Virus record (IMG/VR): IMGVR_UViG_3300020112_000191
Location: 1 to 64,000 of that record
Source: a virus
Taxonomy: Duplodnaviria > Caudoviricetes
Reading direction: 5' to 3' (one strand)
Length of the DNA stretch: 64,000 bases
Position 1 is the first letter of the stretch, and every line of letters starts with the position of its first letter. This document shows positions 13,697 to 28,511 of this stretch, piece by piece. The notes under the pieces are model-generated. The model searched no databases. It was not told where the DNA came from and was given only the letters and a program-made list of their open reading frames with translations. A program made the position numbers and the translations under genes.

Positions 13697-13972
13697 ATGG
13701 AGAATACAATCGAAATTACAGAATTTGGCGCAAAAGTAACGCTCTCTGACGGAAATGAACTTGAGTATCGTATTCCAACTAAGGAAGAAAAGAAGGCAGC
13801 TAAAGATGATCAGGAGTACATTCTTAAGAGCAGTGATTTCGTATTTAGAAAATTCGAAGATGGCTCTTCAACATTGTATTGTCCAGATGGATACGGCCTT
13901 TGTGCAGCTGGAGCTATTGATAAGCTCAAAATTGCATCTTACGAAGCAAATTTGGTGATAACTAAGTACTAA
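13697..13972 (+). CDS. hypothetical protein
   Basis: 91-aa ORF. Confidence 0.65.
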   Translation: MENTIEITEFGAKVTLSDGNELEYRIPTKEEKKAAKDDQEYILKSSDFVFRKFEDGSSTLYCPDGYGLCAAGAIDKLKIASYEANLVITKY

Positions 13973-13973
13973 A

Positions 13974-14040
13974 GACCTACTGACGAGTCGTTGAAAATTA
14001 CGACGAAACATGGCGCACTGCGGTGCGTTATGTCTAGGTT
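13974..14040 (+). ncRNA. hammerhead ribozyme, type I (HH2); cleavage after C14034
   Basis: stem I GACCUA/UAGGUU, CUGACGA, stem II GUCGU/ACGAC, GAAA, 10-bp stem III, GUC triplet. Confidence 0.93.
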
Positions 14041-18609: not shown

Positions 18610-19623
18610 ATGGAATTGATAAATAATAATCAGTATATAGAATTGCATACACTTGTCCAAAATCTTGGATGGAGAAGAGATAGTGTACTTAGACTCGTCA
18701 AAAGGTTACTTACACAGAAAGGTGGAGTAACTGATTATCAGGTAGTTACATATAAAAGAAAACAATCTACTGGATCAATCAATGGCGTTGAGCGTTTTAA
18801 AGATATAACAGATTATAAACTCACAATGAAGGGAGTTGAGCTAATTTGCTTATCGTTAAAAGGAGAGCAGGGTGATGCATTTCGTAAAGCTGCAATAGAA
18901 TTGTTCCATCAAACTGCGGCTGCTAAGCTTCAGGATGAGGTAGCTCTCTCTATGAATGAGCGTGCAATCGTTACTCTCCAAAATCAGTTTACTACATTAC
19001 AGAGTCGAATAGTAGCTCTTGAGAATCTTGATATAGACAAGCGTCTTGATGCAGCTTCAACAGCTATATCTACAATTGAGGCTCGTGTCAATAAAGCTTC
19101 AGAATGGGCTGTAGAGCAAATGAAGAAGGACGCAGCAATTGAGCGTCAGCTTGTTCTAATTAAGAAGATTGCTGAAGCTGGTCCTACGAATTATGAGCCG
19201 CGTAAGAATACTCTTGCTCAGATTTGCAAGGTAATCAAGATGAAGCTTGCTGACGCTAAGAAGAAGCTTTCTGTAGCCCATGTAGATTCTAAGTATTTCG
19301 TCACCAAGACAGATAAGTACGGCGAATACGATGAGTTCACTCTCGAAGGCGTAAAGTGGCTTAAGGCATATTTAAAGAATTCTGGTTGGAATTCTCTTGT
19401 CAAGAAGGAAACACCAAAGTGGATGGATATTGCTGAGTTGGCTGCAGAACTAAATATTCCACAGACTGCTGTAATCGAGTATCTCTACAAGAAGGGCGTA
19501 ATTAGCTCTACAAAGACTCTGAAGATCACTCCATTCGGTATGCGCAATTACTATGCTAAGTATTTCGGTGAGACACTTATCATTTCTCCTGAGTTCATTG
19601 CAATAATTAAGAAGGCGTTCTAA
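18610..19623 (+). CDS. antirepressor-like protein (AntA/Rha-like N-terminus, coiled coil, KilAC-like C-terminus)
   Basis: DYKLTMKGVELICL..GDAFRK; FTLEGVKWL; IAELAAEL..ITPFG; probable start MELINN. Confidence 0.55.
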   Translation: MELINNNQYIELHTLVQNLGWRRDSVLRLVKRLLTQKGGVTDYQVVTYKRKQSTGSINGVERFKDITDYKLTMKGVELICLSLKGEQGDAFRKAAIELFHQTAAAKLQDEVALSMNERAIVTLQNQFTTLQSRIVALENLDIDKRLDAASTAISTIEARVNKASEWAVEQMKKDAAIERQLVLIKKIAEAGPTNYEPRKNTLAQICKVIKMKLADAKKKLSVAHVDSKYFVTKTDKYGEYDEFTLEGVKWLKAYLKNSGWNSLVKKETPKWMDIAELAAELNIPQTAVIEYLYKKGVISSTKTLKITPFGMRNYYAKYFGETLIISPEFIAIIKKAF

Positions 19624-20027
19624 TGAAGAAGATATTCATTCTAATTCTGATAGCATTCTCATTACAAGCTGAGGCTCAAGAGAGAGATACGATACCATTG
19701 ACAGTCCACAAGAATCACATCTATTTTTACGCAGTTGATACTAATAACGATTGCCTTAGAATTTTGGTTGATACTGGGGCTAAAATGTGTGTCGTATTCG
19801 ACAAAAAAGTGTTAATAAACAAAATAGGCTACAGGATGCATCTCGCTGGACTTAATGGTTCGTCCAAAGTTACTACAATAGGTACTCTAAAGACGAACTT
19901 ATTTGAGACTTATGCTTATCGTGTTAAAGAAAACAAACCGTACGATGCTATCATTGGATTAGATTGGATGATTGAGCATGAGGTTATAATTGATTTACCA
20001 AACAAGCGGCTAATATATAAGCCGTAG
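19623..20027 (+). CDS. secreted retropepsin-like aspartyl protease
   Basis: signal peptide, LVDTGA, DAIIGLDW. Confidence 0.85.
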   Translation: MKKIFILILIAFSLQAEAQERDTIPLTVHKNHIYFYAVDTNNDCLRILVDTGAKMCVVFDKKVLINKIGYRMHLAGLNGSSKVTTIGTLKTNLFETYAYRVKENKPYDAIIGLDWMIEHEVIIDLPNKRLIYKP

Positions 20028-20105
20028 TCATTCGGAAGACTTAAAAACACTTACTGAAGAGGCCGAACGAGACAGTGCCTGGGAGCAATCCTGGGCACTG
20101 TCTAA
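20026..20105 (+). ncRNA. variant type I hammerhead ribozyme with kissing loop (HH3); cleavage after C20102
   Basis: UUA/UAA stem I, CUGAAGA, G-(GCCGAA)-C, GAGA, ~12-bp stem III with GCAA loop, GUC; upstream hairpin loop UUCGG is complementary to CCGAA. Confidence 0.7.
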
Positions 20106-20143
20106 ATAGGGAATATTCCCGCAAAACTTAAAAAACTTAACAA

Positions 20144-20479
20144 ATGATAACTACTGCATATCAGTTTATAAACAACAACAAGCCAGTCGTTAATCAAATT
20201 GTAATATTTGAAACTGGACGAGGTGTAAATCGCGTTACATTTCAGAGTTACGAGACACCAGTTTGCTGCATTGATTCTCAGCATAAGACTATTACCTTCA
20301 AGGAATGGTTTCCAGAAAATAAGAATAAATTTTGGTCTAAGACAACAAGAAAGTATTTGTACAAATTTCTTTATCAGCAAGGATTCGGTTTTTGGAATAT
20401 AAAGACTCTCAGAACAGCCATTGCTGACAAGAGTTTTGAACGTTATCATGTAACTTGGAAAGTAAAATATGTATTCTAA
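20144..20479 (+). CDS. hypothetical phage protein
   Basis: FQSYET..WSKTTRKYLYKFL; A-rich leader. Confidence 0.7.
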   Translation: MITTAYQFINNNKPVVNQIVIFETGRGVNRVTFQSYETPVCCIDSQHKTITFKEWFPENKNKFWSKTTRKYLYKFLYQQGFGFWNIKTLRTAIADKSFERYHVTWKVKYVF

Positions 20480-25228: not shown

Positions 25229-25493
25229 AACAAGGTGGACTGTACTCTTGTTTTTCGCATTCATAGTTCTCAACATCGCATTTGTATTTGCAACAGCAAA
25301 GCATTATAGCGATGAGAATAAGAATATTGAAGCTCAGCTCTCTATTAAGAGGGCTGAACTCAAGGCTCACGAACTTAAATACGAAGAAGATACAGCTTAT
25401 TACAAACAAGCTATTCGTGATATGCAGTATATGCAAGATTCGCTTATTAGCGTAATTCTCGAATACGAACTAAAAGACATCCAGGAGTCTTAA
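25218..25493 (+). CDS. membrane-anchored coiled-coil protein
   Basis: N-terminal TM helix followed by a heptad region. Confidence 0.65.
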   Translation: MESKTRWTVLLFFAFIVLNIAFVFATAKHYSDENKNIEAQLSIKRAELKAHELKYEEDTAYYKQAIRDMQYMQDSLISVILEYELKDIQES

Positions 25494-25547
25494 ACATCCA
25501 CACCGACGAGACTGGACGAAACACCGCTGTGATAGCGGTGTCTGTGG
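25474..25547 (+). ncRNA. variant type I hammerhead ribozyme with kissing loop (HH4); cleavage after C25542
   Basis: CCACA/UGUGG stem I, CCGACGA, G-(ACUGGA)-C, GAAA, stem III CACCGCU/AGCGGUG, GUC; upstream hairpin loop UCCAG is complementary to CUGGA. Confidence 0.85.
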
Positions 25548-25565: not shown

Positions 25566-28511
25566 ATGGAAGAAACAGGACTTAAGCTTGTTGATGTTGA
25601 ACAATACAACAAGAAGATAGCTAATATGCAGAAGCGATTGGACAACTCCAGGGAATTCTTCAATGAGGTTGCTGATCTATTCCGATGCAAGTATAATGAT
25701 ATTTCTGAATTTGTAGCGAAAGCTCATGCAGAAGGTAAGACTGTAGACCTTCGTATGTATCTTATGGTTGAAGCACATTTGATCCAGAGAATCAATGAAA
25801 CGCTGAAGATCCTTGAGAGGTACGGAGAGAAAGTAGAGTACATAAAGTATGATTATAATAAACTCTGGTTCTAATGGGAAATAAGTATAAATACGCAGAT
25901 CTGAAGATCATGTGGCACTATGGCTGTGAAGAAGATCACATTTTTGTTGGTATTGGTATAACTGAAGATGAACCAAATGACTACATGATTAGTTACTATT
26001 TTGAGGATTACGAAGAATTGCTTGATTCTCTTAATTGGTGCGATACAAATCACGATTTCTACACAATTGCCATTGATGGCGTATATGAAGAAGTATGACA
26101 AATAAGGAATTCACAAATCTCTGCAAAGAATTGGATCTTACATTGATGAAGAAGACTGTGATGATTACGATGCCTACTCAGACATCGCTTTGTGCATTCT
26201 TTTATGTAAATGGACGGCTTCATTCTATAGAAAAGAAATCTAATTGCAGAACAGCTCATTTGCACGAAAATTACAATAGATACTGCCGGTTTAGAACTAT
26301 CTACAGCGATAAATCTATTGCAAATTTCACGAATAGAGTAAAGGACGTAATGAATTTAGGCAATGTTGAACTTAATCTAGCTTACTAATGGGAAAGATCG
26401 GTTTTAAGCAAGACACAACCAAAGATGTTGAGAAGGTTTATAAGACTCTTAAGGCCTACAATAAGGCTCTCGATAACCTCAAGACTAAGGATCCAGATAA
26501 GTACGAAGAAGTATTAGCGACAATCGAAAAAGAAGAGAATCCAGAAGAGGAAGAGGGCTCACTTGTTCAGCCAGTAACAACTCTGGAGATTGCTGGTGCT
26601 ATATATTTCTTCAAGAGACTTATGAAGGGCAAAGATCAGGTATCAGAGATATTTGGTACACAGTTTATTAACACAGATTATACACCAATCCAGGAGGCTG
26701 CTGTAAATAACGTAGATGGACACAGCGAATCCGTAGAAGTAGAAGAAGATGGCGAAGAAGATTAAAACAAATAAGTACAGAATCATTCTAAATATGACAT
26801 CAGAGTATTATGGTGGCAAGCCAATTCTGAATAAGTCGTTTGAGTTTGAATCAGAAGAGAATTTAACAAATCTTAGAGCTTTGTGGACTTTCTATTTTGC
26901 TGGTTCACAGACAAATTGGCGTATCGAAAAAATAGAAGACAATGAATGATGATGTAATTTCAGAGGCACTGCAGCAATTTTACGATGACATTGAAGCCGT
27001 AAAGGTTGATTGTGTCGGTATGAACAAAAGCGATCTTGAGACAGTAAAAGAAGATCTCTCTCATTTTATTAATCTTCTTGATTGCTGGATTGTAGAAGCT
27101 AAAGAGTAAAAAAACAATGGGTGGGCTTAGGCTCACCCTTAACTATTTATTATTATGAATAAACTCATTTGGGATATAGCTATCCTTGATCACAATATAA
27201 ACCAGGTTGTATTGGCAGATGTTGTATTGCCAGCAGATTTCTTCAATCATGGAACTACAGAGGACGTATTAGTCTATCTTGGATTCGATGTAGAAAATTG
27301 CGACTATATGATGTCTCTCAAGGAAACTCACAAAATAAGTGTTGTTAAAAATCATTATAACCTGACAAAGAAATGAAAATATTAATAAAAAATAATGCAT
27401 TCAGCGACGAAAGCTGGAAGAAGAATGGTAAGAATTTCACATTCCTTAACGGCAAATGGGTAGAGCCTCTATTCCGAAAAGTAAAAGATAATGCTGGTAA
27501 CGAATGCTACACAAATATGTTTGATAATCAATTCGTAGTTGATACTCATATTGGTGCAGTTACCGTAATGCAGAACCAAATACTTGCTGTAAAGGACGAT
27601 ATTCGTCAGGATTATTCAGTATCAAAATGGAATGGCAGAGCTTACCTTACAGCTAATTTGATGGACGTAAAGAAGCGCATTGCAGATATGCCTTGCAAAA
27701 AGTGTCACGAATTGAGAAGCGAGACTGACTACTTAGAACTTAAGCACGAAGGTAAGATTTTGAATTTCAAGTTCAAGATTCCAGTAGGATTTCATCATTA
27801 TTGCGCAGCTATTGACTTATTTAAGCACAAGTGCTATAAAGACGAAATGCTTGATTATGGATTTCAGCCAGTGTTGAGTCCTGATATCGAGAAATATGCA
27901 AGCATAATCGACAAATATAAGTTCTATAGCCCAAGATTTGACGATATGTTGGATTACTATAAAGATATATTTCATTTTGTTGTTGGAACATTTCGTTGCA
28001 CTTATGATACAGCTAAAAATACAATATTAATAGAAAACAGACGTAAGAAATTCGCTCATGAAAATGTATCTAAAGCTGTAAAGGAAAACTTATTTAGTTT
28101 CATGCCGCTAGCAAACGCTCCAAAATGTTGGTGTGACTACGAATACAAAATCAGAAGTAAAGTATCAAGCATTCTTATCAGGAAGGAAATATCAATCAAT
28201 GCATTAGCCGAATTTCAGTTGAATGTTTTAGAAGCATTTGTTTATAATATTAACGATTACAAAGAAATTAAATGAAAGTATATACATTGAGAACACTAAG
28301 ATCGTGGACTCAGAAAAATATTTACGTAAAGAGGATTGCCGACAAGGATAATCCTTATGCGATCTTTAAGGAAACTGGTAATGGCGATACATCGTTCATT
28401 ATGAAGGGTAAAAATCTCAAGACGTTGACTGGCATTGTAGATACTATGCGCCGTCAACACATTGAGGAATACGTTCGTGCCAGAAAAGTCATTCATAGAA
28501 GAGCTTACTAA
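25566..28511 (+). other. run of hypothetical ORFs between nrdD and nrdG (25566-25874, 25874-26098, 26095-26388, 26388-26765, 26749-26949, 26942-27109, 27155-27376, 27373-28275, 28272-28511)
   Basis: translationally coupled ORFs without recognisable motifs. Confidence 0.65.
27119..27140 (+). terminator. intergenic hairpin, weak terminator or processing site
   Basis: GGGTGGGC-TTAG-GCTCACCC; same C-TTAG-G loop as the 5478 hairpin. Confidence 0.45.

What the first reader, a model, noticed from the sequence alone, without database searches (positions are those of the whole stretch)
20026..20105. HH3: kissing-loop hammerhead with GAGA replacing the conserved GAAA and a 3-bp stem I
Seen: CUGAAGA-G-GCCGAA-C-GAGA, a long stem III with a GCAA tetraloop, GUC, and only UUA/UAA as stem I. 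The upstream hairpin is AGUC-AUUCGGAA-GACU. Known: A14 is normally near-invariant in the core. Inference: either a natural slow or tuned variant that depends on the kissing loop, or a recently inactivated copy.
Basis: partly seen in the sequence, partly recalled or inferred. Interest (0 to 1): 0.7.

Follow-up and report, generated by a model that had tools for sequence, protein, structure and literature searches.

The report
Freshly mutated, probably dead phage hammerhead
This is a real kissing-loop hammerhead ribozyme between two phage genes, but its two oddities are recent point mutations absent from a 99.5%-identical sister phage, and they most likely switch the ribozyme off rather than define a new variant.

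Summary
Window 20025-20107 (+) is a RAGATH-1-type hammerhead: type I, 1-bp stem II, and a 5' hairpin whose loop UUCGG is complementary to the stem II loop CCGAA. It reads GAGA where GAAA is expected (G14 = 20071), and stem I has three A-U pairs, a C.A mismatch, then one more A-U pair.

An orthologue settles the interpretation. A sister phage contig (JGI 3300001598 EMG_10000176) is 99.5% identical over 30 kb. It carries the same 83-nt element with canonical GAAA and a full 5-bp stem I (G instead of A at 20106). Both oddities are therefore SNPs private to this genome among the two genomes known.

- A14 is A in all 111 distinct HH1/HH2-type and all 16 other kissing-loop phage hammerheads I collected.
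- A14G is the standard "dead control" mutation in hammerhead engineering.
- In nearest-neighbour folding, G14 pairs with the cleavage-site C17 (P = 0.999, against 0.05-0.15 in the sister copy and the other three hammerheads). This lengthens stem III by two pairs (-4.9 kcal/mol).

Best reading: a recently inactivated or severely crippled copy, not a tuned variant class. A residual slow activity, or an assembly or minor-allele artefact, cannot be excluded without assays or reads. The kind is known; interest is modest. The near-isogenic intact/mutant pair could be used to test what phage hammerheads do.

The parts
20025..20027 (+). UAG stop codon of the upstream ORF (19623-20027, retropepsin-like). 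The ribozyme match starts on it.
20026..20041 (+). 5' accessory hairpin P0: AGUC / loop AUUCGGAA / GACU. Loop bases UUCGG (20031-35) form the kissing partner.
20049..20053 (+). Stem I 5' strand ACUUA. C2.4 = 20050 faces A20106 (mismatch).
20054..20060 (+). Core C3 U4 G5 A6 A7 G8 A9 (CUGAAGA), canonical.
20061..20068 (+). One-base-pair stem II (G20061-C20068) closing loop GCCGAA. CCGAA (20063-67) is complementary to UUCGG of P0.
20069..20072 (+). G12 A13 G14 A15.1 = GAGA. G20071 is the A14G substitution (A in the sister genome).
20072..20101 (+). Stem III: 13 bp including A15.1-U16.1 and two G.U pairs, with a GCAA loop (20085-88). With G14 the predicted helix extends to A13-U1.1 and G14-C17 (20070-20103).
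20102..20102 (+). C17 of the GUC triplet. The cleavage site expected from the hammerhead consensus lies between 20102 and 20103, 41 nt upstream of the ATG at 20144.
20103..20107 (+). Stem I 3' strand UAAAU. A20106 is the second private substitution (G in the sister, giving a C-G pair).

Best explanation
Window 20025-20107 descends from a normal RAGATH-1-type (kissing-loop, type I) hammerhead. That ribozyme sits in the gap between a retropepsin-like gene and a DUF8033 gene of a ~94-kb phage. In its canonical form it would cut the polycistronic RNA after C20102. In this genome the element has two recent transitions. A14G (20071) hits a core adenine that is invariant in the phage hammerheads sampled here, and it lets G14 pair with the scissile-site C17 and A13 pair with U1.1, burying the cleavage site in a lengthened stem III. 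G-to-A at 20106 removes the only G-C pair of stem I. Together they most likely abolish or drastically slow self-cleavage, so RNA is no longer, or only rarely, cut at this junction. Shown: orthology, the two private SNPs, invariance of A14 in natural relatives, and the predicted alternative pairing. Inferred: loss of activity, and the direction of change (canonical = ancestral).
For: 1. The sister contig EMG_10000176 is 99.5% identical. Its orthologue (L068:9882-9964) differs at only these two positions, reads GAAA, and has a 5-bp stem I. It scores 54.1 bits for RF03152 against 45.4 here.
2. Position 14 is A in 111 of 111 distinct HH1/HH2-type phage hammerheads found with a pattern that left that base free. 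The 16 other kissing-loop hammerheads all read GAAAC.
3. A pattern for the mainstream RAGATH-1 core with GAGAC found 0 viral contigs against 13 with GAAAC. GAGAC pattern hits in prokaryote genomes are not hammerheads.
4. A14G is the standard inactivating control: 'completely abolished HHR self-cleavage' in sTRSV (PMC4889925) and reported to inactivate N107 (PMC3505972).
5. Folding gives P(C17 paired) = 0.999 with G14 as partner. The value is 0.06 for the in-silico A14 version and 0.07-0.15 for HH1, HH2 and HH4, and 0.048 for the sister. The hairpin is 4.9 kcal/mol more stable with G14. The gap between the active 2D fold and the MFE is 16.0 kcal/mol here against 4.9 in the sister, and each SNP adds 5-6 kcal/mol.
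6. HH4 is identical in both genomes. The one HH2 difference keeps its pair (U-A against U.G).
Against: No cleavage assay exists for this sequence or for any A14G kissing-loop hammerhead. Some core changes that cripple engineered hammerheads do occur in natural ribozymes that still cleave: A6C in phage Bcep176 and U15.1-A16.1 (PMC3088659), and A9U (PMC10085705). The nearest-neighbour model ignores the kissing loop and tertiary contacts. Only two genomes of this phage are known, so polarity rests on the family consensus, and allele frequencies are unknown. The rest of the element (P0, kissing loop, stem III) is intact, as expected for either a very recent loss or continued use.
Confidence: 0.7

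Rival explanations
1. Attenuated but used ribozyme or conformational switch. G14 and the weak stem I lower the cleaved fraction so that only part of the transcript is cut, tuning the ratio of joined to separated mRNA. Alternatively the G14-C17 helix masks the site until something opens it.
For: Everything except two positions is intact, including the 5-bp kissing loop. Natural low-activity core variants occur in phage intergenic regions (PMC3088659). Mutations that are severe in engineered constructs can be tolerated in natural ones (PMC10085705). Both SNPs lie in a locally fast-changing stretch with excess nonsynonymous change in both flanking genes, so selection on this locus is conceivable.
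Against: G14 is absent from the only orthologue and from 127 other natural phage hammerheads, so nothing shows it is maintained. A14G abolishes cleavage even in the tertiary-stabilised sTRSV ribozyme. Both SNPs push the predicted energetics in the same inactivating direction.
Confidence: 0.15
2. The G at 20071, and possibly the A at 20106, is an assembly or base-call artefact, or a minor allele fixed in the consensus of a mixed population. On this reading the real phage has a canonical hammerhead.
For: The window is a metagenome-assembled viral contig supported by a single assembly. The two assemblies of the sister (JGI and Logan) agree on the canonical bases. The locus lies in a SNP-dense patch where strain mixtures could produce chimeric consensus.
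Against: The 144 differences over 30 kb are mostly transitions and are spread like ordinary strain divergence. Two independent errors in 83 nt of an assembled consensus are unlikely. No homopolymer or repeat context surrounds either site.
Confidence: 0.12
3. Not a ribozyme at all: a chance hairpin next to a CUGA-like motif.
For: The score is below the Rfam gathering threshold (45.4 against 56.3 bits).
Against: E = 2.4e-4 in the window and 8.3e-8 per genome. The architecture and spacing match HH4, which scores 72.6 bits and is on the same strand of the same genome. The kissing loop is compensated. A canonical orthologue exists.
Confidence: 0.02

Closest known systems
RAGATH-1 hammerhead ribozyme (Rfam RF03152)
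   Same: Type I topology. A 5' accessory hairpin whose loop pairs with the loop of a 1-bp stem II. A-rich 7-nt linker, ~5-bp stem I, hairpin stem III, GUC cleavage triplet. Phage intergenic location.
   Different: The kissing-loop sequence UUCGG/CCGAA was not seen in any other member sampled. Stem III is longer. G replaces the invariant A14. Stem I has a mismatch. The score is below the gathering cut-off (45.4 bits).
Laboratory A14G 'inactive control' hammerheads (sTRSV, N107)
   Same: The identical single-base change at the identical core position.
   Different: Those are engineered type III or Schistosoma-derived constructs. This one is a natural allele in a kissing-loop type I ribozyme and has not been assayed.
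Natural core-variant hammerheads in phage intergenic regions (Bcep176 A6C, PaP3; Perreault et al. 2011, PMC3088659)
   Same: A single deviation from the 13-nt core consensus in an otherwise typical phage context. Some of these variants retain low activity.
   Different: A14 is not among the positions reported as variable there. Here the variant is private to one of two near-identical genomes.

Membership tests
RAGATH-1 hammerhead (RF03152) | Covariance-model score at or above Rfam's gathering threshold (56.3 bits) | tested here: not met
   45.4 bits for the window copy. 54.1 bits for the canonical sister copy. HH4 of the same genome scores 72.6 bits.
RAGATH-1 hammerhead (RF03152) | 5' hairpin loop complementary to the loop closed by a 1-bp stem II (kissing loop or pseudoknot) | tested here: met
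   UUCGG (20031-35) pairs with CCGAA (20063-67), 5 Watson-Crick pairs. At least 8 different complementary pairs occupy the same places in 17 family members.
Hammerhead ribozyme (core consensus as in Perreault 2011: C3 U4 G5 A6 N7 G8 A9 G12 A13 A14 A15.1 U16.1 H17) | All conserved core nucleotides present | tested here: not met
   11 of the 12 specified core positions are met (N7 is free); position 14 is G (20071). [quoted passage not shown]
Hammerhead ribozyme | Three helices around the core, with intact pairs adjacent to the core (1.1-2.1, 10.1-11.1, 15.1-16.1) | tested here: met
   A20053-U20103, G20061-C20068 and A20072-U20101 are all standard pairs. Stem I is weak further out (C.A mismatch at 20050/20106).
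Hammerhead ribozyme | Site-specific self-cleavage 3' of H17 | not testable with these tools
   Needs an in vitro transcription and cleavage assay.
Hammerhead ribozyme | Descent from a canonical hammerhead (orthology) | tested here: met
   L068:9882-9964 is identical apart from two bases, with a canonical core, in the same gene context.

The most novel reading that the evidence does not exclude
The G14 allele is a functional, selected state. It would be either a strongly attenuated hammerhead rescued by the kissing loop, or an on/off polymorphism in which phage strains differ in whether one operon junction is cut. The G14-C17 helix would act as a built-in mask of the cleavage site.
Probability: 0.12. 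Interest if true: 0.6.

Novelty: new member of a known kind. Interest (0 to 1): 0.3.

Why it matters
It does not reveal a new ribozyme variant. Its value is as a natural experiment. Two phage genomes 99.5% identical differ at exactly the core base that laboratories mutate to kill hammerheads, plus a stem I pair. The other three hammerheads of the same transcript carry no core change: HH4 is identical, HH2 has a pair-preserving change, and HH1 gains a stem III mismatch. Comparing RNA processing and expression of the flanking genes in the two phages, or in constructs carrying the two alleles, could address what intergenic hammerheads do for phages. It could also show whether a kissing-loop scaffold can buffer A14G.

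Tried and rejected
- **Orthologue searches that failed.** Both flanking proteins gave nothing useful in viral contigs: none, or two 34-36% relatives without hammerheads. A pattern for the HH3 stem II loop plus core, with position 14 free, gave only chance hits in GC-rich coding DNA in viral contigs and in metagenome contigs. Near-identical records seem to be withheld from those scans. The sister genome came only through the protein word search and the contig look-up.
- **Logan contig as a third genome.** Rejected: SRR1221442_441 is 100% identical to the JGI contig over 14 kb, so it probably derives from the same data.
- **Alternative register giving a canonical GAAA.** Rejected by inspection: none leaves a stem II.
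- **Extended stem III as an intrinsic terminator.** Rejected: no U tract and no + strand terminator call.
- **Diversity-generating retroelement for the SNP-dense patch upstream.** Rejected: no template copy in the genome.
- **GAGAC-containing pattern hits** in Acetobacteraceae, Acidobacteriota and other genomes as natural A14G hammerheads. Rejected: no hammerhead match.
- **Formal pair counting of the kissing loop on the MAFFT alignment.** Not done, because the gap placement shifts HH3, HH4 and L036 by one column. The script result is used instead.

Full report
**What is there.** The window is the first 64 kb of a 94,233-bp viral contig rated 97% complete. Genes around the finding are densely packed on the + strand. 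They look like early or DNA-metabolism functions: a Rha/anti-repressor-like protein, a Holliday-junction-resolvase-like protein, exonuclease VIII and NrdD.

The 116-nt gap between ORF 19623-20027 and ORF 20144-20479 contains the element. Read directly, its parts are:
- hairpin AGUC / AUUCGGAA / GACU (20026-41);
- a 7-nt A-rich linker;
- stem I 5' strand ACUUA (20049-53);
- core CUGAAGA (20054-60);
- a single G-C pair closing GCCGAA (20061-68);
- GAGA (20069-72);
- a 13-bp stem III with a GCAA loop (20072-20101);
- C17 at 20102;
- stem I 3' strand UAAAU (20103-07).

Rfam's RAGATH-1 hammerhead model aligns it end to end at 45.4 bits (E 2.4e-4; gathering score 56.3). The genome has four hammerhead-like matches, all on the + strand: 7915-8001, 13960-14039, 20025-20107 and 25474-25547. 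The last one (HH4) has the same architecture and scores 72.6 bits. The only refinement is that stem I is three A-U pairs, a C.A mismatch, and a further A-U pair.

**Is it a genuine hammerhead homologue?** Yes.
- The loop of the 5' hairpin (UUCGG) is perfectly complementary to the stem II loop (CCGAA).
- In HH4 the same two places read UCCAG/CUGGA. In 14 other kissing-loop hammerheads fetched from viral contigs and one MAG they read CCUAG/CUAGG, CUAAG/CUUAG, CCAAG/CUUGG, CUAGA/UCUAG, CUAGG/CCUAG, UCCCAG/CUGGGA or CCAG/CUGG.
- This is the covariation expected of the family's defining tertiary contact.
- All core positions other than 14 are canonical.

**The orthologue.** Direct searches for orthologues in viral and metagenome contigs found only chance matches. 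A word-based protein search with the downstream 111-aa protein found one 96%-identical protein on a 97,566-bp contig. Its DNA (JGI 3300001598, EMG_10000176; loci L068, L070, L072) is collinear with the window and 99.5% identical over window 1-30480, with 144 differences.

The orthologous element (L068:9882-9964) differs from the window's at exactly two bases. It has A where the window has G20071, so it reads GAAA. It has G where the window has A20106, so stem I is a full 5 bp with a C-G pair. It scores 54.1 bits. A Logan assembly of SRR1221442 has the same canonical sequence, but it is 100% identical to the JGI contig over 14 kb, so it is not an independent genome. Cluster look-ups show only these two genomes for four neighbouring proteins. 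Both features that made the finding interesting are therefore substitutions private to the window's genome. Because the sister state matches the family consensus, the window state is most simply the derived one (inference).

**How unusual is G14?**
All 111 distinct sequences in them have A at position 14.
- All 16 other kissing-loop members read GAAAC.
- The mainstream RAGATH-1 core written with GAGAC occurs in 0 viral contigs against 13 with GAAAC.
- GAGAC pattern hits in prokaryote genomes are coding-sequence coincidences without any hammerhead match.
- In the literature, A14G is the routine negative control. It 'completely abolished' cleavage of a tertiary-stabilised sTRSV ribozyme (PMC4889925) and is the inactive N107 control (PMC3505972).
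- Perreault et al. list A14 in the strict core. They report natural phage variants at other positions, with low activity (A6C, k_obs < 0.1 per min) or none (PMC3088659).

**Predicted consequence.** With G at 14, the MFE structure extends stem III through the cleavage site by G14-C17 and A13-U1.1.

| Sequence | P(C17 paired) | Gap, active 2D fold to MFE (kcal/mol) |
|---|---|---|
| Window allele (G14, A at 20106) | 0.999 | 16.0 |
| Sister allele (A14, G at 20106) | 0.048 | 4.9 |
| G14 with G at 20106 (in silico) | 0.999 | 9.8 |
| A14 with A at 20106 (in silico) | 0.058 | 11.1 |
| HH1, HH2, HH4 | 0.07-0.15 | not computed |

The hairpin gains 4.9 kcal/mol with G14. The two mutations therefore act in the same direction. 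These numbers ignore the kissing loop and tertiary structure. They indicate direction, not rate.

**Local evolutionary context.** Differences between the two genomes are not even.
- Window 19803-20165 holds 20 of them (5.4%), against 0.41% elsewhere.
- Sixteen lie in the last third of the upstream gene and change 11 codons nonsynonymously against 2 synonymously. All four differences in the downstream gene are nonsynonymous.
- At the background rate, two hits in 83 nt are mildly unexpected (Poisson P about 0.05). At the local rate they are not.
- I therefore cannot claim selection for inactivation. Relaxed constraint, hitch-hiking in a variable or recombinant patch, and adaptive change all remain open.

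The other hammerheads behave as if constrained. HH4 is identical in both genomes. HH2's one difference keeps its pair (U-A against U.G). HH1's one difference gives the window a C.U mismatch inside stem III where the sister has C-G.

**Mechanism proposed.**
- Ancestrally, and in the sister phage, the element would cut the polycistronic RNA after C20102. That leaves an upstream RNA ending in the stable stem III hairpin and a downstream RNA with a 41-nt leader before the ATG at 20144. This is inferred from family knowledge. Multi-hammerhead prophage transcripts have been shown to be cut at each ribozyme in vitro (PMC3088659).
- In this genome the junction is most likely no longer cut, or only rarely. 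The ~6.1-kb and ~5.4-kb units between predicted cuts at 14034, 20102 and 25542 would then stay joined (inference).
- Confidence that the two oddities are real private substitutions of a canonical ancestor is about 0.85-0.9. Confidence that they abolish or reduce activity by at least 100-fold is about 0.7.

**Comparison and novelty.** The kind is known: the RAGATH-1 hammerhead, RF03152. This copy is a member by descent but fails two membership criteria, the gathering score and the invariant core. It is best filed as a mutated, probably inactive copy with an otherwise new kissing-loop sequence. It is not a new variant class.

Noticed in passing
window 19803-19962 (within ORF 19623-20027): SNP-dense patch relative to the 99.5%-identical sister phage: 16 differences in 160 nt, 11 nonsynonymous against 2 synonymous codons. 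The 134-aa product has a signal-peptide-like N-terminus and a DTGA motif, with a weak Asp_protease match (PF09668, 20.1 bits, below cut-off). There is no second copy of the patch in the genome, so it is not a DGR target. The cause is unexplained: diversifying selection, a recombination tract, or strain-mixture consensus.
   Followed up: partly
window 25474-25547 (HH4); L018:4605-4625; L024:9850-9870: HH4 has C instead of U at core position 4 (CCGACGAG). The same U4C occurs in two unrelated kissing-loop hammerheads from other viral contigs. Unlike A14G, U4C therefore looks like a recurrent, tolerated variant in this class. HH4 is identical in the sister phage.
   Followed up: partly
window 7989 (HH1) and 14030 (HH2): Each of the other two hammerheads has one difference from the sister genome. 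In HH1 the window has a C.U mismatch inside stem III where the sister has C-G. In HH2 the window has U-A where the sister has U.G.
   Followed up: yes
window 20031-20035 versus 20054-20058: Because N7 is A, the core CUGAA is nearly the same as the stem II loop CCGAA. The P0 loop UUCGG can therefore also pair with the core (one G.U), and the MFE fold chooses this pairing. This possible misfolding trap is present in both alleles.
   Followed up: no
L084, L111, L125 (IMG/VR 3300045988 contigs): Several viral contigs carry two or three HH1/HH2-type hammerheads about 390-400 nt apart on one strand, a much tighter spacing than the ~6 kb seen in this window.
   Followed up: no
window 27046-27153 (-) and L068 16903-17009 (-): Weak MicX-model match (31.9 bits, E 0.003, far below the gathering score), driven by a GC-rich hairpin plus a U tract. 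It is probably just a terminator-like hairpin conserved in both phages.
   Followed up: no
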